In this document: positions 476 to 39,525 of the stretch, in pieces
How positions within the stretch are numbered: the first letter of the stretch is position 1
Layout of the letters: each line of letters starts with the position of its first letter
DNA from: a virus
Taxonomy: Duplodnaviria; Caudoviricetes
Strand: one strand, 5' to 3'
DNA: 53,562 bases
Virus record (IMG/VR): IMGVR_UViG_3300010413_000045
Coordinates: 1 to 53,562 of that record
Made by a program: the position numbers and the translations under genes
The notes under the pieces: generated by a model
The model's input: the letters and a program-made list of their open reading frames with translations, nothing else
The model's database searches: none
What the model was told of the DNA's origin: nothing

Positions 476-658
476 ATGGAATGGATTTTTATGTTATCCG
501 GGGTAAATAATATAATAATGGGTATCATTGGAGTATATAAAGGAGCAACGCAATTTACATATCTTAATCTTGTGACCGGTCTTATCTGGTTGGTCGTTGC
601 GTTTATTATCCAGAATTACAAAATTAGTCATATACAGGATGAAAATGATGAAGTGTGA
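476..658 (+). CDS. Small 2-TM membrane protein
   Basis: GAGGAG RBS; two hydrophobic segments. Confidence 0.6.
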   Translation: MEWIFMLSGVNNIIMGIIGVYKGATQFTYLNLVTGLIWLVVAFIIQNYKISHIQDENDEV

Positions 659-1316
659 GAGATGCGGAGGAAGCGGAAAATATTTTCAGGAAAATCCTGA
701 TTGTTCCAATTGCCCATCTAAAGATGAATGTGATGATTTTGGAAAACAATTTTGTACTGTTCCATCAGACTGCCCAAACTGTCTCGACACAGGCACCAAG
801 CCAGAACCGGGACAGGATGAGAGGATCAGGGATGATTTTGAAGAAGTAAATCCAGACGTTATATTGAATGAACATGACAAAGAATATTACAGCATTGAGG
901 TGCGGGCTTCGTTTGAGCATTTCAAAGCCGGCTACACCTCCCGCAATGCCGAAATCGAAGCGAAAGATAGGACAATAACTGATCTACAGAAACTCAGTTC
1001 AGAGCATGTTAGTTATCTTTCTGAGTTGTCGAAAAAAGAAACCGAAATCGAAGCCCTGAAAGCAGAGATTAAATCAATGCGCGATTTTCTAGAGCTTGTT
1101 GAAAGATGGAAAGATGCCTACCCAGAAGATGTTTTTCCTCCAATTGGAAAAGATCCATATTTTATGATGTGCAAAGTTGCAGGATTTTCTGTTGATAGGG
1201 TTTCGGCTCACGTCTTAAGGGGGATTGTTAAGAATTATTCAGATCAAGCATCAATATTTCTAAATAAATCACAGACTCAACCCCGCAATAATCCCCCCAA
1301 TAAATCCAATAACTAA
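645..1316 (+). CDS. Hypothetical protein with DnaJ-like Zn finger (CERCGGSG...CPNCLDTG) and coiled coil
   Basis: CxxCxGxG motifs; heptad region; start reassigned from 597. Confidence 0.7.
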   Translation: MMKCERCGGSGKYFQENPDCSNCPSKDECDDFGKQFCTVPSDCPNCLDTGTKPEPGQDERIRDDFEEVNPDVILNEHDKEYYSIEVRASFEHFKAGYTSRNAEIEAKDRTITDLQKLSSEHVSYLSELSKKETEIEALKAEIKSMRDFLELVERWKDAYPEDVFPPIGKDPYFMMCKVAGFSVDRVSAHVLRGIVKNYSDQASIFLNKSQTQPRNNPPNKSNN

Positions 1317-1748
1317 TCCTGAAGCGGTCCCGATAATGGCCGCTTTTTTCCATCTATTCAGCTTGATCAATATACGATTGTATTCTTCCTCTAATTTCTG
1401 ATACTGATCCGATATCGTCTGAAAGTCCGTTTGCAGTTTCTGAAAGTCCTGATTCAATCCCTGATAATCCAGATTCAATGACTGAAAGTCCTGATTCAAA
1501 GATTGATAGTCTGTTCTCCATTTCTGTATATCGATTTTCAAGGTCTGAATATTTACTTTCAAGCTCTCTATTTCGCTCGATTGCGCTGTCAAGCTCTGCT
1601 GTTTTAGACTCAAGCTGATCTCCAAGTTCGCCAACTTCTGATCTAAGCTTTTCAGCTCGTCTACCAGGACCAATACTTCCTGCGAAAAAGAAGACAGCAC
1701 ACAGAACAATAAGAACAACAATGTAAATAATCGTTTTTTTATCCACAT
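1269..1748 (-). CDS. Spanin-like protein A: signal peptide, long coiled coil, C-terminal Gly-rich TM
   Basis: MWIKKRLFTLLFLLFCVLSSFSQE N-terminus; heptads; AAIIGTASGLVIGFIGGIIAG; last gene of lysis cassette. Confidence 0.7.
   Translation of the reverse strand: MWIKKRLFTLLFLLFCVLSSFSQEVLVLVDELKSLDQKLANLEISLSLKQQSLTAQSSEIESLKVNIQTLKIDIQKWRTDYQSLNQDFQSLNLDYQGLNQDFQKLQTDFQTISDQYQKLEEEYNRILIKLNRWKKAAIIGTASGLVIGFIGGIIAGLSL
1354..1746 (-). CDS. Spanin-like protein B (i-spanin topology), fully nested in protein A in another frame
   Basis: MDKK + hydrophobic TM, then continuous coiled coil; GTG start 2 nt from ATG of A. Confidence 0.65.
   Translation of the reverse strand: MDKKTIIYIVVLIVLCAVFFFAGSIGPGRRAEKLRSEVGELGDQLESKTAELDSAIERNRELESKYSDLENRYTEMENRLSIFESGLSVIESGLSGIESGLSETANGLSDDIGSVSEIRGRIQSYIDQAE
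1420..1511 (-). repeat. Imperfect 21-bp tandem repeat (one heptad per unit in both frames)
   Basis: Units tgaaagtcctgattcaatccc / tgataatccagattcaatgac / tgaaagtcctgattcaaagat. Confidence 0.85.
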
Positions 1749-1750
1749 TG

Positions 1751-1996
1751 TCAGCCCTTTAGATCTTTGAGTATTTCCAGCCATTTAATAGCCTCTCGAC
1801 CGAATACGACTATCAGAAATGTTACGAGAAGAAGAACAACGGCGTACCATCCTGTAATTTTCCCAGTCCAGACAAGCCAACCGGAAAAAGCCATGCCAGC
1901 GAACTTTATAGATAACATTTTCCATATCAGAGTCGTTATCCTATTTGGGAGGTCCTTTACTGTCTCGACGAAGTTCATTTCCTTAATATCTTTCAT
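1751..1996 (-). CDS. Putative holin (2 TM)
   Basis: 81 aa, two TM segments, charged C-terminus, adjacent to endolysin. Confidence 0.7.
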   Translation of the reverse strand: MKDIKEMNFVETVKDLPNRITTLIWKMLSIKFAGMAFSGWLVWTGKITGWYAVVLLLVTFLIVVFGREAIKWLEILKDLKG

Positions 1997-2622
1997 TCTA
2001 TAGCTCCTTTTCCCTTATATACCTTTTCATTGCTCCATGAGCTATTTACCATAGCATTGGAAACCCAGCTTTTAAAAGACCTCCACAGGTCATCGGGGTC
2101 GTTATCATCCTCAAAAAAAGCGCGCGGACATGGAATAGCTTTTTCGTTGGTCAGATCGGAATGACGGAGTAAATCTGTTTCAGGATTGAGATTATATTTA
2201 TTGCATAGATTAGCTGCGATCTGAATTAGAGAGTTCATAGTGTCGGCATCGTACCCGCCTGTGTCCTCGATGTCATGGAGTCCGCATACACCGATAGTGT
2301 AATTGTTCGGAGAATCCTGGCTACTGCATACACGATCGCCGAAGAACTCCTTCGCCTTTTTCCGATATGTTTTGTGGCCGCAATGAATAGCCCTGTTCGG
2401 AGATTCGCATGTCTCGTAGATTTTATCGTGGGAAACAAGAAAATGATAATATGGCGCTGTTTCTCCGTTTGCTTTCATGGCTCTACCCCTGTTATCCATC
2501 CACCGCCATAGAGAATCGATATTCGGCAGACCCCGCGAAGCATCCCAGTGCACAATAATGGCCTTGACGGACTTCAGTTTTCTTCCGCCGGTCCAGGAAA
2601 ATAATTTTTTTTGGTAATCCAT
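1993..2622 (-). CDS. Endolysin, N-acetylmuramoyl-L-alanine amidase (Amidase_2)
   Basis: IIVHW, YHFLV, AIHCG, NNYTIGV, LLRHSD, PCP zinc-amidase motifs. Confidence 0.9.
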   Translation of the reverse strand: MDYQKKLFSWTGGRKLKSVKAIIVHWDASRGLPNIDSLWRWMDNRGRAMKANGETAPYYHFLVSHDKIYETCESPNRAIHCGHKTYRKKAKEFFGDRVCSSQDSPNNYTIGVCGLHDIEDTGGYDADTMNSLIQIAANLCNKYNLNPETDLLRHSDLTNEKAIPCPRAFFEDDNDPDDLWRSFKSWVSNAMVNSSWSNEKVYKGKGAIE

Positions 2623-2643: not shown

Positions 2644-3036
2644 TTAAATAAAATATACTACTATTCCGGTTACAGTAGCTACGACAGCACACATCCCGGC
2701 AACTTTACCCCATGTCAATTCTGATTCGGCCCTTTTGATTCCTCCGACGGTATCCCTTCCGGATCGATCTCCTTCATCTCTCGATTGTCTTTGCTCAAGA
2801 GCGCCAACACGATCACGCATTGATCTTTCTTTTTCATACAGATCCGCTACGTCATTACGAAGCCTGGTGACATCATCTTTAACCGGAGAGACGTGTAGGT
2901 TGATATATTCTTTGATATCTAATGTCGTATTGGCGAGCATGGAGCTCATCTGCGATATGACTTCTTTATTGCCTTCTTGTATGGCAAGCAATGTTTCAGC
3001 ATCCACGTTGCTAATCCCCTTTTTTGGCACTGACAT
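2644..3036 (-). CDS. Lysis-cassette coiled-coil protein with C-terminal TM (holin/antiholin-like)
   Basis: Coiled coil plus C-terminal hydrophobic helix; precedes endolysin. Confidence 0.6.
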   Translation of the reverse strand: MSVPKKGISNVDAETLLAIQEGNKEVISQMSSMLANTTLDIKEYINLHVSPVKDDVTRLRNDVADLYEKERSMRDRVGALEQRQSRDEGDRSGRDTVGGIKRAESELTWGKVAGMCAVVATVTGIVVYFI

Positions 3037-3064: not shown

Positions 3065-3106
3065 AAAAAATCCGGGCAGAACGTGGTAAAAACGAAGCTG
3101 CCCGGA
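3065..3106 (-). terminator. Intrinsic terminator upstream of lysis genes
   Basis: TCCGGGCAG-18nt-CTGCCCGGA then TTTTTT on minus strand. Confidence 0.7.
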
Positions 3107-3119
3107 CGGGATCGAACAA

Positions 3120-3842
3120 CTATAATTTATCACGTCTATTCGCCACCTTTTCGCATTCTGTCTTTTCCGACGTAATTATGCCGTTTTCAAACAACCAGAA
3201 CATAAACTGATCCTGGGTTTTGAATCCATGTTTATTTCTTTCATCCCTCACTTTCCTCGGTAGATTCTGATCAGTTACATTTAATTCTAGTTTATCATTG
3301 ATTTCTGGCCAATCAAAGCCCTTTGATCTCAGTTGTAGGATATCGACGACATCGGAGTTAACCATTGAGGGGTATGGCGTTTTATGTTCAGTATACTTTT
3401 TATCCGCGTTTTTCGACGGATGTATGTAATGGTGGTATAGGACAAAAAGAAATGAGGATCCAGCTAAATATGTCGCTGCCTGAGCGGGATTTTGTCCAGT
3501 AAATGTAAACCTTATAATAAAAAGAAGTAACGATACCCCGGAATATAAATAGATTCTTTTTGGGTTTTTTGACAAATAAATTGAATATGTGAGCAATGAT
3601 GTTCCGGCCAAGCTCGAATCCCCATTAAACCAAAATCCAACCATCGACAAGATCAATAAAATCAAAGATATTTTTTCATTTTTTAATTCTTTCTTTACAA
3701 ACCAAAACAGGAATATTATAGGAATGAAAATTATCGAGTAAAATAAATAATACTCGAAATCTTCACCCCTATATAATCCATTAACGAGATTCCCTACCGA
3801 AATTATTGATAGAGGTATACTGAGTTTTTGTCCGATCCTCAT
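3120..3842 (-). CDS. Multi-pass membrane protein with C-terminal LuxR-like HTH
   Basis: ~5-6 TM segments then DVVDILQLRSKGFDWPEINDKL...RNKHGFKTQDQFMFWLFENGII. Confidence 0.7.
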   Translation of the reverse strand: MRIGQKLSIPLSIISVGNLVNGLYRGEDFEYYLFYSIIFIPIIFLFWFVKKELKNEKISLILLILSMVGFWFNGDSSLAGTSLLTYSIYLSKNPKRIYLYSGVSLLLFIIRFTFTGQNPAQAATYLAGSSFLFVLYHHYIHPSKNADKKYTEHKTPYPSMVNSDVVDILQLRSKGFDWPEINDKLELNVTDQNLPRKVRDERNKHGFKTQDQFMFWLFENGIITSEKTECEKVANRRDKL

Positions 3843-38263: not shown

Positions 38264-38602
38264 ATGAGTGATATTATTGAGAAATTGGGGATTACGCCGG
38301 GGCCGTGGGAGAAATCAGAAAAGGTTTGCGACGTTGTTATTTCTAAAAATGTGAAAGAGCTTGACGATGAAGCAAAAAGACGCGGACATGCAGATATAGA
38401 TTATTATGGAGGATTTTGTGTTGCTGAAAGCATATTTGAAAAAAACAGAGGAGTTATCGCCGCCGCTCCCGAAATGCTTGAGACATTGATAAAGCTATGT
38501 GTTGATCCTCCATTAGACAGCTCTGTTATAGTAGAAATAATAGAACCAATCATAGAGAAATCTATAGGGATGTCTATTCATGAGATCAAGGAGCTATTAT
38601 GA
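38264..38602 (+). CDS. Conserved phage hypothetical protein
   Basis: TPGPW...IAAAPEMLE pattern. Confidence 0.75.
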   Translation: MSDIIEKLGITPGPWEKSEKVCDVVISKNVKELDDEAKRRGHADIDYYGGFCVAESIFEKNRGVIAAAPEMLETLIKLCVDPPLDSSVIVEIIEPIIEKSIGMSIHEIKELL

Positions 38603-39525
38603 AAAAACTATCAATCCTAATTATTTTAATCACTATCACCCTATCAAGCTGTGATCAGATCGCCGCTTTTTTCGCCACCCTTACTGCCAATCGTACCGAG
38701 GGGAGCGTTGAGGACGAGTTTACATTCACTGTAGACACCAATGATACTATAATCGGATGGTATGTAGACGATCAGTCTATTCCTTACTCATCTCGTTCGG
38801 CAGTATCCGAATCATTTACCTTTGAACCGGGGAATCATACAATTACGGTCGAAACGGAAAATGTCGATCCGGTCAGCATAGAGGTTTATGTTTATGAACC
38901 GCAGATTATATTCAATGTAACGCTTGAAGAGTGGGGAGGTTTTGTCTCGGTTTCATACGATCATCCCATATTGAAATATGAAATGGTTCAAGGCAATCTA
39001 TACGAAATATCTGATTCTATGGCAAACGGCCTTGTAACGGTAGATGATAACGGAAGCATTATATCTGTTGATGTAAAGATAAAAGCATGGTCATGGGCTG
39101 TCAATGGGATGGCCGGTATCAAAGCTACAGGATTGTCAGAATCAGAGTTTATAGATTATCTGGACACTTTATACTCTATCGAAGAGCCGATTGAATCATG
39201 GAGCTCTACGGTGTTCTATTTGCGGGGTATAACATCAACCAGTCCTGATAGCTTTTATATTTATGATAATTATCTGGTAATTTCTGGAATATTAACAAGT
39301 TTTGAAAACGTACCTTATACTGTTGCGGCCGATGTGCGAACTCTAAACATCGAAATCAAGGTTGATACCAGTGATGCTACAATTTTTACAGGAAACAATC
39401 TGATCAATATTTTCGGTATGGATTATAGAAATCTGACACTGGAAGAATTGAAAGATGTTGCGGAGATATTGAGGCGATTTCCTGAAGAGGGGATATGGGA
39501 TCTGGCGATGGAGTTTAATTCATGA
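38599..39525 (+). CDS. Lipoprotein with Ig/PKD-like N-domain
   Basis: MKKLSILIILITITLSSC lipobox; WYVDD...FEPGNHTITV. Confidence 0.75.
   Translation: MKKLSILIILITITLSSCDQIAAFFATLTANRTEGSVEDEFTFTVDTNDTIIGWYVDDQSIPYSSRSAVSESFTFEPGNHTITVETENVDPVSIEVYVYEPQIIFNVTLEEWGGFVSVSYDHPILKYEMVQGNLYEISDSMANGLVTVDDNGSIISVDVKIKAWSWAVNGMAGIKATGLSESEFIDYLDTLYSIEEPIESWSSTVFYLRGITSTSPDSFYIYDNYLVISGILTSFENVPYTVAADVRTLNIEIKVDTSDATIFTGNNLINIFGMDYRNLTLEELKDVAEILRRFPEEGIWDLAMEFNS

What the first reader, a model, noticed from the sequence alone, without database searches (positions are those of the whole stretch)
1269..1748. Two fully nested spanin-like genes sharing one RBS, with dual-coded membrane anchors and coiled coils
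Seen: AAAGGGCTGACA-ATGTGGAT provides ATG (1748) and GTG (1746) 2 nt apart. Both frames stay open (159 and 130 aa), both start with a hydrophobic export/TM segment and both are coiled coils. Established: in lambda the lipoprotein Rz1 is nested in the i-spanin Rz, and T1 gp11 is a unimolecular spanin (lipoprotein N-terminus, C-terminal TM). Here the i-spanin-like ORF is the nested one, and the outer ORF has a signal peptide (SFS-Q cleavage, or lipidation at LLFC) plus a C-terminal Gly-zipper TM. Inference: an undescribed two-component outer-membrane disruption architecture with stoichiometry set by start-codon competition.
Basis: partly seen in the sequence, partly recalled or inferred. Interest (0 to 1): 0.72.

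Follow-up and report, generated by a model that had tools for sequence, protein, structure and literature searches.

The report
Two overlapping phage lysis genes
At the end of a phage's cell-bursting gene set, one stretch of DNA appears to encode two different membrane-anchored rod-like proteins in two reading frames from start codons two bases apart; one protein is certainly real, the other is probable but unproven.

Summary
On the minus strand an ATG (1748) and a GTG (1746) open two frames of 159 aa (A, 1269-1748) and 130 aa (B, 1354-1746), right after an Amidase_2 endolysin and an 81-aa holin-like gene in a complete 53.6-kb myovirus genome.

Frame A is a real gene. It scores 121 bits (E 2e-36) against a profile built from seven ~160-aa proteins found elsewhere. 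All share a signal peptide, a coiled coil with a W-x-x-[KD]-Y-Q motif and a glycine-rich C-terminal membrane helix.

Frame B (N-terminal membrane helix plus coiled coil, Rz-like topology) is probably also coding. It is the longest alternative-frame ORF in the genome (permutation P 0.0013, top of 116 tests, Bonferroni 0.15). Given A's protein it has far fewer prolines, stronger heptads and a better membrane helix than expected. It is intact in 3 of 3 relatives in the protein database.

Lipidation at LLFC, and hence o-spanin or u-spanin membership, is not supported. A spanin-like role is inferred only from gene position and topology. I never obtained DNA of distant homologues, and nothing tested translation. 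I rate it a new variant of embedded lysis genes, of moderate to high interest.

The parts
1993..2622 (-). Endolysin, 209 aa, N-acetylmuramoyl-L-alanine amidase (Amidase_2), with no wall-binding domain.
   Evidence: Pfam PF01510 E 2.8e-15. PHROG endolysin families down to E 5e-16. Family search in own genome. Among the relatives' SNPs that were listed, 20 of 22 fall on third codon positions.
1751..1996 (-). Holin-like gene, 81 aa. Its stop codon TGA (1753-1751) lies 2 nt before A's ATG.
   Evidence: Position between endolysin and A/B. Hydrophobic segment at residues 44-73. No family match, so the holin role is an inference. Conserved in relatives (P0004/P0005).
1269..1748 (-). Frame A, 159 aa. 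It has a signal peptide (residues 1-23, SFS|Q), a coiled coil (about 24-134), a basic cluster NRWKK and a glycine-zipper membrane helix (135-159). It is a member of an unnamed ~160-aa family.
   Evidence: ORF. phmmer full-length hits P0018, P0020, P0031, P0042, P0054, P0085, P0046. 121.3 bits against a profile built without A; controls reach at most 28 bits. Heptads and GxxxG.
1354..1746 (-). Frame B, 130 aa, GTG start, in the +2 (= -1) frame relative to A. It has an N-terminal membrane helix (about 5-24) then a coiled coil with ESGLS repeats, giving Rz/i-spanin-like topology.
   Evidence: ORF. Called as a 130-aa gene in three relatives at 93, 93 and 85% identity. Weak PHROG 739 'Rz-like spanin' match, E 4.2e-4. 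Randomisation tests.
1744..1748 (-). Overlapping start codons ATGTG (ATG for A, GTG for B).
   Evidence: Sequence. In contigs of run X3 the base at 1748 is G, so A would start with GTG there. The holin stop sits at the same place in those contigs (loose end at 1747).
1755..1759 (-). SD-like AAGGG, 6 nt before the ATG and 8 nt before the GTG.
   Evidence: Sequence. The phage uses SD-type sites: GGAG occurs upstream of 33% of 57 starts against 5% background.
1718..1751 (-). 13-nt inverted repeat (arms 1718-1730 and 1739-1751, 8-nt loop). As RNA it pairs the end of the holin stop and both start codons.
   Evidence: the repeat finder. RNA fold -31.4 kcal/mol, z -2.7, with 1 of 200 shuffles folding as well. 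Function is inferred.
1734..1740 (-). Run of seven A, which reads A_AAA_AAA in frame A. A -1 slip here would lead into frame B.
   Evidence: Sequence only. No downstream stimulatory structure was seen. This is an idea, not a finding.
1272..1353 (-). A-only tail (A residues 132-159: basic cluster plus membrane helix), downstream of B's stop.
   Evidence: Relatives keep similarity up to 1262 or 1275, that is to A's stop and not B's. In two contigs A ends at the same codon with a different stop. No indel occurs in 1269-1748 in any laid contig.
1440..1567 (-). Two 21-nt (heptad-length) tandem repeat arrays (1440-1511 and 1523-1567). They encode DYQxLNQDFQ-type repeats in A and ESGLSxI repeats in B.
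   Evidence: Tandem Repeats Finder.
2644..3036 (-). 130-aa coiled-coil protein with a C-terminal membrane helix and no signal peptide, upstream of the endolysin. It may be part of the cassette.
   Evidence: ORF. Hydrophobic segment 109-130. A 4-member 90% cluster among relatives. No family match.

Best explanation
The last 480 bases of this myovirus's lysis cassette are dual-coding.

**Frame A** is the older gene. It is a Sec-exported protein, probably cleaved after SFS. It has a periplasmic coiled-coil stalk and is held in the inner membrane by a glycine-zipper C-terminal helix.

**Frame B** runs through A's signal-peptide and coiled-coil codons, shifted by two bases. It stops exactly where A's membrane anchor begins. 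It encodes a type II membrane protein (N-terminal helix, periplasmic coiled coil) with the topology of an i-spanin.

**Initiation.** Both frames are reached by ribosomes at overlapping ATG/GTG codons 2-4 nt after the holin stop and behind one SD-like site. The region can fold into a hairpin, so initiation is probably coupled to holin translation. The A:B ratio would then be set by start-codon choice.

**Shown:** both ORFs, A's family membership, the lysis context, and the statistical signs that A's codon choices accommodate B.

**Inferred:** that B is translated; that the two oppositely anchored stalks act together on the envelope in the last step of lysis as a lipoprotein-free analogue of a spanin; and the translational coupling.

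My odds are about 0.95 that A is real, 0.65 that B is a functional product, and 0.35 that the pair does a spanin-like job.
For: **Context.** The window is a complete virus record with terminal repeats. It encodes sheath, baseplate, portal and terminase. An Amidase_2 endolysin and a small membrane protein lie immediately upstream.

**A is real.**
- A phmmer search of 1.84 billion representatives gave 177 hits at E<=1e-3. Most are coiled-coil noise.
- Seven are 155-164-aa proteins aligned end to end, E 2.5e-15 to 3e-5. They share a signal peptide, a W-x-x-[KD]-Y-Q motif, EYQKL and a C-terminal helix.
- A profile of these seven, built without A, scores A at 121.3 bits.
- Controls score far lower: B 10.5; 500 shuffles at most 12.8; 500 shuffles keeping signal peptide and helix at most 28; reversed A 17.9. 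No other ORF of the window ranked among the top 25 matches, that is above about 15.7 bits.
- The best single-domain score of long coiled-coil proteins is 48.7.
- The L28P change seen in runs X3, X5 and X7 restores the family's consensus Pro.

**B looks selected.**
- With A's protein fixed and its own codons permuted, a 130-codon open +2 run occurs in 0.13% of trials. This is rank 1 of 116 tests.
- Its stop count has z = -2.95, also rank 1 of 116. It is the only case with proline z < -2.
- There are zero Pro in B residues 30-125, where 4.5 are expected (P 0.001).
- Heptad power has P 0.0014 and membrane-helix hydropathy P 0.019. All are stronger under genome codon usage.
- A uses 0 CTY leucine codons of 28, against 38% in the genome.
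- Leaving out extra repeat copies still gives P 7.8e-4 for no stop.
- B is a full 130-aa ORF in 3 of 3 database relatives, with mostly conservative replacements.

**Relatives.**
- Of the 15 SNPs listed for 1269-1748, 7 are synonymous in B and 3 in A.
- No indel occurs in 1269-1748 in any laid contig of 4 runs. The one indel listed lies in the spacer at 2637.
- Similarity ends at A's stop.

**Other.** No canonical lipoprotein ORF exists near the cassette. Embedded genes are common at exactly this position in lysis cassettes: 182 embedded and 228 overlapped among 677 phages (PMC6139136, passages).
Against: **No direct evidence of translation of either frame.** No RNA run holds the locus, and no proteomics or ribosome profiling was available.

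**The ORF-length test is not significant after correction.** P 0.0013 times 116 gives 0.15. The other B features were chosen after seeing the sequence.

**Much of B's protein-likeness is a by-product of A.**
- B-frame codon score under permutation has a mean of 0.250 against 0.297 observed (P 0.04).
- B-frame heptad power is already 2.0 on average under permutation, against 0.2 for random sequence.

**The SNP evidence is thin.**
- It rests on 15 of an unknown total; only 40 of 278 differences were shown.
- Its distribution over codon positions does not differ from uniform (P 0.25).
- B-synonymous enrichment is marginal (P 0.057).

**Divergence is not reduced in the overlap.** It is 9.3-9.6% in run X5, against 10.3% and 6.2% in the neighbouring genes. 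Any double constraint is therefore weak.

**Retention of B in relatives is only mildly unlikely under neutrality.** The chance is roughly 0.07, and the sample is biased because relatives were found by searching with B.

**One relative could close A.** In P0002 the B change R58L closes frame A unless the Leu codon is CTC or CTT. Its DNA could not be obtained.

**DNA of the seven distant A homologues was never obtained.** Whether they carry a B-like frame is unknown.

**Against a spanin role.**
- Neither protein has a lipobox or a periplasmic Cys.
- The basic cluster before A's C-terminal helix sits on the predicted periplasmic side, against the positive-inside rule.
- The host, and hence its envelope type, is not identified. 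TerL is at most 36% identical to cultured phages, and the 12 best-ranked have Gram-negative hosts.
Confidence: 0.55

Rival explanations
1. Only frame A is a gene. B is an untranslated alternative-frame ORF. It stays open and looks helical because A is a repetitive coiled coil rich in Q, D, E, L, F and Y, whose codons read in the +2 frame give S, G, E, L and I, with help from recent 21-nt tandem duplication.
For: - A's family membership is secure.
- Under permutation, A's composition alone gives long open +2 runs (mean 59.5 codons, maximum 159). The corrected ORF-length P is 0.15.
- B's codon score and most of its heptad signal follow from A's protein.
- Two 21-nt repeat arrays cover about 117 nt.
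- GTG is a weaker start, 2 nt after a good ATG.
- The listed SNPs are not significantly non-uniform over codon positions.
Against: - B is the most extreme alternative frame of 116 on two measures.
- It has zero prolines (P 0.001), enhanced heptads (P 0.0014) and a better helix (P 0.019) beyond the by-product level.
- The signal survives removal of repeat copies.
- B opens with a start codon 5 codons after a stop, inside the SD window.
- It is intact in 3 of 3 relatives.
- Only 3 of 15 listed SNPs fall on A's third positions, against 20 of 22 in the endolysin (Fisher P 1.8e-5). That is odd for a single-frame gene.
- No A-frame protein from close relatives is in the protein collections searched, though B-frame ones are. 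The search of representatives of about 15 billion proteins gave 0 hits at E<=1e-30, and the two searches of the 5.8-billion-cluster collection gave no A-frame protein.
Confidence: 0.27
2. Both proteins are made, but B is reached from A's ATG by a -1 ribosomal slip on the A_AAA_AAA run (1734-1740), giving MWIKK-TIIY..., rather than by initiation at the GTG.
For: The seven-A run is a slippery heptamer in frame A, and the -1 frame from it is exactly frame B. B has no other ATG, GTG or TTG until residue 76.
Against: - No stem-loop or pseudoknot follows the run at the usual 5-9 nt.
- The run lies in the loop of a hairpin whose other arm is upstream.
- KK after the initiator Met is the ordinary n-region of a signal peptide in this family.
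- The GTG sits at a normal distance from the SD-like site.
- Conservation of the run in relatives could not be seen, because the SNP list was truncated.
Confidence: 0.07
3. Only frame B is functional in this phage lineage. Frame A is a recently silenced remnant of the ancestral family gene that has not yet picked up stops.
For: - All gene calls found in close relatives are B.
- B has the more genome-like codon usage: 0.297 against 0.139 per codon.
- Of the 15 listed SNPs, 12 change A's protein, some radically.
Against: - A keeps an intact signal peptide, motifs and anchor, and scores 121 bits.
- About 6% of substitutions would create a stop in A, yet none of the 15 listed do.
- A's start stays a valid codon (ATG or GTG), and its stop position is kept with a different stop codon.
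- Similarity and indel-free alignment run through the A-only tail to A's stop.
- L28P moves towards the family consensus.
Confidence: 0.04

Closest known systems
Lambda Rz/Rz1-type embedded two-component spanins
   Same: - They are the last genes of a lysis cassette after holin and endolysin.
- One gene lies wholly inside another in a different frame.
- One partner is a type II inner-membrane protein with a periplasmic coiled coil, and B has this topology.

Definitions are taken from passages of PMC6139136.
   Different: - Here the i-spanin-like ORF is the nested one.
- The two ORFs start 2 nt apart and overlap for 130 codons, rather than the inner one starting at 0.4-0.5 of the outer.
- The partner (A) is not a small proline-rich outer-membrane lipoprotein. 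It is a 159-aa coiled coil with a signal-peptidase I type signal and a C-terminal membrane helix.
- There is no lipobox and no periplasmic Cys.
- Sequence similarity to Rz-like PHROGs is weak: E 4.2e-4 for B and 3.9e-3 for A.
Phage T1 gp11 unimolecular spanin
   Same: [quoted passage not shown]
   Different: - gp11 is defined by a lipoylation signal, with lipobox LSGC (PMC6139136).
- A has LLFC with Phe at -1, and the Cys is not conserved in its family.
- A's periplasmic part is a heptad coiled coil. The paper's figure legend describes predicted beta structure for gp11.
Overprinted (out-of-frame overlapping) virus genes, for example phiX174 E inside D (recalled)
   Same: A second protein is read from an alternative frame of an older gene. 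The detection logic is the same as the single-genome codon-permutation ORF-length tests (PMC6188560; only the search listing and the start of the abstract were seen).
   Different: - The overlap covers 82% of the older gene and starts at its own start codon.
- The candidate new protein is not disordered. It is a regular helix-forming membrane protein.
- By codon usage the nested frame looks the more adapted, the opposite of the usual tendency.
Lambda S105/S107 dual-start holin/antiholin (recalled, not checked in a paper here)
   Same: Two lysis proteins come from start codons a few bases apart, and their ratio is set at initiation.
   Different: S105 and S107 are in the same frame and differ by two residues. 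Here the two starts are in different frames and give unrelated sequences.
Membrane-anchored coiled-coil stalks such as chain B of PDB 8QOX
   Same: The architecture of an exported N-terminus, a long coiled coil and a C-terminal membrane helix is shared. The profile match is E 1.2e-7 over A2 positions 31-153.

The papers listed for 8QOX concern the Sulfolobus S-layer (listing only). That chain B is SlaB is my inference.
   Different: The match is low-complexity coiled coil plus a hydrophobic tail. It is an analogy of build, not evidence of common descent, and the organism and function differ.

Membership tests
Unnamed ~160-aa family (P0018, P0020, P0031, P0042, P0054, P0085, P0046) | Full-length sequence similarity to a profile of the family | tested here: met
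   A scores 121.3 bits, E 2e-36, as a single domain covering the profile. Shuffled, partly shuffled and reversed controls reach at most 28 bits. Coiled-coil decoys reach at most 48.7 bits per domain.
Unnamed ~160-aa family (P0018, P0020, P0031, P0042, P0054, P0085, P0046) | Signal peptide with small residues at -3 and -1, usually followed by Q; W-x-x-[KD]-Y-Q motif; basic cluster then a Gly-rich C-terminal helix | tested here: met
   The alignment and sequences show Q at +1 in 7 of 8 including A. A carries WRTDYQ, DQYQKLEEEY and NRWKK followed by a GxxxG x4 helix.
Two-component spanin, i-spanin subunit (Rz-like) | N-terminal transmembrane domain with a periplasmic, often coiled-coil, domain, encoded next to holin and endolysin | tested here: met
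   B has a hydrophobic segment at 1-29 and heptads over 30-130. It lies directly after the holin-like gene. The topology itself is predicted, not measured.
Two-component spanin, i-spanin subunit (Rz-like) | Sequence membership in a known Rz-like family | tested here: inconclusive
   PHROG 739 gives E 4.2e-4 (21.5 bits) and PHROG 2466 gives E 0.013. There are no Pfam or NCBIfam matches above cut-off. The precomputed PF28175.1 on relatives is not in the local library.
Two-component spanin, o-spanin subunit (Rz1-like) | Lipoprotein signal with lipobox [LVI][ASTVI][GAS]C, embedded in, overlapping or following the i-spanin gene | tested here: not met
   A has LLFC with Phe at -1. A six-frame scan with a relaxed lipobox found only 38599-39525, 37 kb away. 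The Cys is present in 4 of 8 family signal peptides and is never canonical.
Two-component spanin | Periplasmic cysteines for intermolecular disulfides (proposed as universal in PMC6139136) | tested here: not met
   A's only Cys (16) is in the signal peptide. B's only Cys (16) is in the membrane helix.
Unimolecular spanin (T1 gp11-like) | N-terminal lipoylation signal plus C-terminal transmembrane domain | tested here: not met
   The C-terminal helix is present. The lipoylation signal is absent.
Functional spanin (any class) | Required for outer-membrane disruption; complements a lambda Rz/Rz1 defect | not testable with these tools
   This needs a lysis assay.
Dual-coding (overprinted) gene pair | Alternative-frame ORF longer than expected from the known gene's protein and codon usage | tested here: inconclusive
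   P 0.0013, rank 1 of 116, Bonferroni 0.15. P 2.5e-4 for no stop in the 130 codons, but that window was chosen after the fact.
Dual-coding (overprinted) gene pair | Both frames kept open and under purifying selection in relatives | tested here: inconclusive
   - B is intact in 3 of 3 database relatives.
- No indels in 4 runs, and A's start and stop are kept.
- Only 15 SNPs of the region were visible: 7 synonymous in B and 3 in A.
- Full relative sequences were not obtainable.
Dual-coding (overprinted) gene pair | Both products translated | not testable with these tools
   No RNA holder was listed, and no proteomic or ribosome-profiling data were available.

The most novel reading that the evidence does not exclude
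The pair is a new, lipoprotein-free class of envelope-disrupting lysis system. It consists of two coiled-coil stalks anchored in the inner membrane by opposite ends, a type I stalk (A) and a type II stalk (B). Both are written in the same DNA and made in a fixed ratio from overlapping start codons coupled to holin translation. The arrangement would be ancient: other members of the A family would also hide a B-like frame, which gene callers report as one or the other.
Probability: 0.15. Interest if true: 0.85.

Novelty: new variant of a known kind. Interest (0 to 1): 0.6.

Why it matters
About one phage in seven of Gram-negative hosts has no recognisable spanin: 91 of 677 in the survey PMC6139136 (passages seen). 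How those phages breach the outer membrane is mostly unknown.

This cassette has no lipoprotein candidate. At the spanin position it carries a member of an uncharacterised exported, membrane-anchored coiled-coil family, apparently overprinted by an Rz-like protein.

- If both are made and act in lysis, this would add a new architecture to the known spanin classes.
- It would give a function to an unannotated protein family.
- It would provide a rare bacterial-virus case of two structured proteins encoded over 130 shared codons from start codons 2 nt apart.
- It would be a compact system for studying start-codon competition and how far one sequence can satisfy two helical proteins.

There is also a practical warning. 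Gene callers report only one frame: B in the three database relatives, and neither frame on record for this genome. The conserved family gene is therefore missing from annotations.

Tried and rejected
**Searches for related DNA that found nothing**
- blastn against phages.
- Peptide-pattern scans of viral contigs with A, B, the endolysin, P0018, P0085, P0042 and P0020.
- A degenerate DNA motif in viral and metagenome contigs.
- Alignment A1 in metagenome and genome contigs.
- P0085 in genome contigs.
- tblastn of A, B and P0085 against phages.

As a result I never saw the DNA of any homologue. The only exception is what read laying printed, which listed 40 of 278 differences.

**Protein searches**
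- The word-based search with A found nothing at near or shorter lengths.
- Pfam, PHROG and NCBIfam gave only sub-threshold coiled-coil matches for A and B.
- PDB sequence search gave only coiled-coil analogues.
- Rfam found nothing in 1000-2200.

**Sequencing runs.** No RNA holder was listed. This says nothing on expression.

**Readings I dropped**
- I first leaned towards "B real, A chance" from the SNP subset and from the fact that 100-118-codon open runs occur in +1 frames of other genes. The family hits overturned that.
- I considered a Bacteroidota host because Q follows the signal-peptide cut (Q-rule; PMC5837995 and PMC10653852, listing and start of abstract only; PMC10367356, passages). 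The phage uses SD sites at a third of its starts, so I make no host claim.
- I rejected codon-usage score as evidence for B after showing it follows largely from A's protein.
- I considered a -1 frameshift at the A-run. It is kept only as a minor rival.

**Literature.** None of the listed papers describes one. Supplementary tables of PMC6139136, which list all spanins, were not seen and may hold unusual cases.

- The search of earlier findings.
- ESM Atlas.
- Complex prediction.
- Structure prediction.
Full report
**What is there.** The window is a complete virus record of 53,562 bp with direct terminal repeats. It encodes a tail sheath, baseplate, tape measure, portal and large terminase, so it is a myovirus. 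Its terminase is at most 36% identical to any cultured phage, and the 12 best-ranked have Gram-negative hosts.

On the minus strand near the left end lie these genes:
- A 130-aa coiled-coil protein with a C-terminal membrane helix (2644-3036).
- An Amidase_2 endolysin (1993-2622; Pfam E 2.8e-15).
- An 81-aa membrane protein in the holin position (1751-1996).
- The region of the finding.

The sequence reads TGA CA ATGTG G ATA AAA AAA CGA. TGA is the holin stop. The ATG at 1748 opens frame A (159 aa, stop at 1269-1271). The GTG at 1746 opens frame B (130 aa, stop at 1354-1356). The third frame has 19 stops.

**Anatomy of the two products.**

*Frame A* begins MWIKKRLFTLLFLLFCVLSSFS|QEVLV.
- It continues as a heptad coiled coil to about residue 134.
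- It ends NRWKK-AAIIGTASGLVIGFIGGIIAGLSL, a helix with four successive GxxxG motifs.

*Frame B* begins MDKKTIIYIVVLIVLCAVFFFAGSIGPGRR, a membrane helix.
- It continues as a coiled coil that includes ESGLSxI repeats.

Both central parts have 3.5-residue hydrophobic periodicity that 0 of 5000 shuffles reach. B stops exactly where A's basic cluster and anchor begin, so A's C-terminal helix (1272-1353) is single-coded. Two 21-nt tandem arrays (1440-1511, 1523-1567) underlie the repeats in both frames.

**Frame A is a real gene.**
- The word-based search found no relative.
- A phmmer search of 1.84 billion cluster representatives gave 177 hits at E<=1e-3. Most are long coiled-coil proteins.
- Seven are 155-164-aa proteins aligned nearly end to end: P0018, P0020, P0031, P0042, P0054, P0085 and P0046.
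- They share A's build: a signal peptide ending in small-x-small followed by Q (7 of 8 including A); a conserved LVP near the mature N-terminus; W-x-x-[KD]-Y-Q; EYQKL; a basic cluster; and a Gly-rich C-terminal helix.
- A profile built from the seven without A scores A at 121.3 bits (E 2e-36).
- Controls score far lower: frame B 10.5; 500 full shuffles at most 12.8; 500 shuffles that keep signal peptide and anchor at most 28.0; reversed A 17.9. No other ORF of the window ranked among the top 25 matches, that is above about 15.7 bits.
- Long coiled-coil decoys reach at most 48.7 bits per domain.
- With B's protein held fixed and its codons randomised, the A frame scores 62.7 bits on average (maximum 88.3) under permutation and 18.9 (maximum 51.9) under genome usage. 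A is therefore not a by-product of B.
- One member is named "chromosome segregation ATPase" by its source, a generic coiled-coil label. No curated family covers them.

**Is frame B more than a shadow of A?** I held A's protein fixed and shuffled its synonymous codons.

| Feature of B | P, own codons permuted | P, genome codon usage |
|---|---|---|
| No stop in the 130 B codons | 2.5e-4 | 5e-5 |
| No stop, extra repeat copies ignored | 7.8e-4 | not run |
| Zero Pro in residues 30-125 (4.5 / 6.9 expected) | 0.001 | 4e-4 |
| Heptad power 3.7 (mean 2.0 under permutation) | 0.0014 | <2e-4 |
| Helix hydropathy | 0.019 | 4e-4 |

- The 130-codon window was chosen after the fact, so I also used the longest open run as the statistic for every gene and both alternative frames.
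- A's +2 frame gives P 0.0013, the smallest of 116. The null is calibrated (median 0.49; 3 of 116 below 0.05). The Bonferroni value is 0.15.
- On stop counts it is again the most extreme of 116 (z -2.95). It is the only case with a proline deficit of z < -2.
- A uses none of the CTY leucine codons (0 of 28, against 38% in the genome), a choice that gives B its hydrophobic positions.
- The longest alternative-frame runs in other genes (83-118 codons) translate to junk and cover at most 62% of their gene.

Two caveats apply. Much of B's heptad signal and nearly all of its good codon score follow from A's protein: the permutation mean is 0.250 against 0.297 observed, P 0.04. The features were also picked after seeing the sequence.

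**Relatives.**
- B-frame proteins of 130 aa at 93, 93 and 85% identity are on record from three short contigs (P0001, P0003, P0002). Their replacements are mostly conservative.
- No A-frame protein from a close relative is on record: 0 hits at E<=1e-30.
- Thirteen public runs from six studies hold part of the stretch. I laid four of them, from four studies.
- Their contigs are 0.3-14% diverged. In run X5 the divergence is 9.3-9.6% in the A/B region and 10.3% and 6.2% in the neighbours, so the overlap is not unusually conserved.
- No insertion or deletion is reported in 1269-1748. The single one listed is at 2637, in the spacer between two genes.
- Similarity ends at 1262 in one contig and at 1275 in two others. 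These points are at A's stop, not B's (1354).
- In the latter two contigs A would end AGT TTT TAG instead of AGT CTG TGA. That is the same length with another stop codon (loose ends).
- In X3 contigs the base at 1748 is G, so A would start with GTG. The holin stop (TAA) is in the same place.

**SNPs.** Only 40 of 278 differences were printed.
- Of the 15 in 1269-1748, 8 fall on B's third position, 3 on B's first (which is A's third) and 4 on B's second.
- Seven are synonymous in B and 3 in A. None makes a stop in either frame.
- In the endolysin, 20 of 22 listed SNPs are on third positions.
- The A/B region thus behaves like neither frame read alone. The Fisher test against the endolysin gives P 1.8e-5 for A's third positions and 0.017 for B's.
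- The 15 SNPs do not differ from a uniform spread (P 0.25). B-synonymous enrichment is marginal (P 0.057).
- L28P in A, seen in three runs, restores the family's consensus proline.
- About 6.1% of substitutions would make a stop in A and 4.1% in B. B's survival in three relatives has a chance of roughly 0.07 under neutrality. That sample is biased, because relatives were found by searching with B.
- In P0002 the change R58L in B would close A unless the leucine codon is CTC or CTT. I could not get that DNA.

**Initiation.**
- AAGGG lies 6 nt before the ATG and 8 nt before the GTG. The phage uses SD-like sites: GGAG upstream of 33% of 57 starts against 5% background.
- A 13-nt inverted repeat (1718-1730 and 1739-1751) can pair the last base of the holin stop and both start codons in a hairpin. 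The fold is -31.4 kcal/mol, z -2.7.
- This suggests coupling to holin translation, which is an inference.
- The seven-A run at 1734-1740 is a slippery heptamer in frame A whose -1 frame is B. No downstream stimulator is evident, so I keep frameshifting only as a minor rival.

**Comparison with known systems.** By the definitions in the spanin survey (PMC6139136, passages):
- B has the build and position of an i-spanin.
- Its match to Rz-like PHROGs is weak: E 4.2e-4.
- A is neither an o-spanin nor a u-spanin. LLFC has Phe at -1. The Cys occurs in 4 of 8 family signal peptides and never in a canonical lipobox. The family follows a signal-peptidase I pattern.
- A six-frame scan with a relaxed lipobox found one lipoprotein in the whole genome, at 38599-39525.
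- Neither protein has a periplasmic cysteine.

The locus therefore works like an embedded lysis-gene pair but is not a member of the described spanin classes. Three literature searches turned up no description of this arrangement. The survey's supplementary tables were not seen.

**Verdict.**
- A is a genuine, unannotated family gene, with odds of about 0.95.
- B is probably a second product, about 0.65. The case rests on converging but individually modest or post-hoc statistics and on a small, biased set of relatives.
- A joint role in envelope disruption is an inference from position and topology, about 0.35.

It is a new variant of a known kind (embedded lysis genes). It is worth a bench test, because separate knock-outs of the two frames are easy to design.

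Noticed in passing
window 1718-1751: A 13-nt inverted repeat whose RNA hairpin would enclose the end of the holin stop and both start codons of A and B, with the A-run in its loop (z -2.7). It may be a translational coupling or timing device.
   Followed up: partly
window 1269-1750 and the protein collection: Neither A (159 or 171 aa) nor B of this contig is in the 15-billion protein collection, although the holin, the endolysin and the 2644-3036 protein of the same contig are. The same gap holds for a 3,074-nt relative contig. What the gene callers did here is unknown.
   Followed up: partly
proteins P0001, P0002: B's relatives carry a precomputed Pfam accession, PF28175.1, that is absent from the local Pfam copy. 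Its identity could not be established.
   Followed up: partly
window 597-1316 (+): A convergent ORF of up to 239 aa, with CxxC...CxxC motifs and a coiled coil, overlaps the last 48 nt of frame A. In three relative contigs the sequence beyond A's stop is unrelated, so this neighbour is not part of the conserved module.
   Followed up: partly
window 2644-3036 (-): A 130-aa coiled-coil protein with only a C-terminal membrane helix (tail-anchored build) lies just upstream of the endolysin. It is conserved at >=90% in four contigs and has no family match. It may be a further lysis-cassette component such as a holin regulator.
   Followed up: no
window 2637: The only indel among the laid relatives in 1100-2700 is a 1-nt deletion in the 21-nt spacer between the endolysin gene and the upstream gene.
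   Followed up: no
window 38599-39525 (+): The only ORF in the genome with a canonical lipoprotein signal (MKKLSILIILITITLSSC), 308 aa, with no PHROG match.
   Followed up: no
proteins P0008, P0009 (one 7,703-nt contig): The 90% cluster of the endolysin holds two short members (68 and 81 aa) from the same contig. The endolysin may be split or broken in that relative.
   Followed up: no
window 3120-3842 (-): A 240-aa ORF with several N-terminal hydrophobic segments and a polar C-terminal part, and only sub-threshold Pfam matches. A terminator-like hairpin lies at 3096-3121, between it and the lysis genes.
   Followed up: no
window-wide: Q follows the predicted signal-peptide cut in A and in 6 of its 7 homologues, a pattern described for Bacteroidetes. 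Yet the phage has SD-like sites before a third of its genes. The host phylum remains open.
   Followed up: partly
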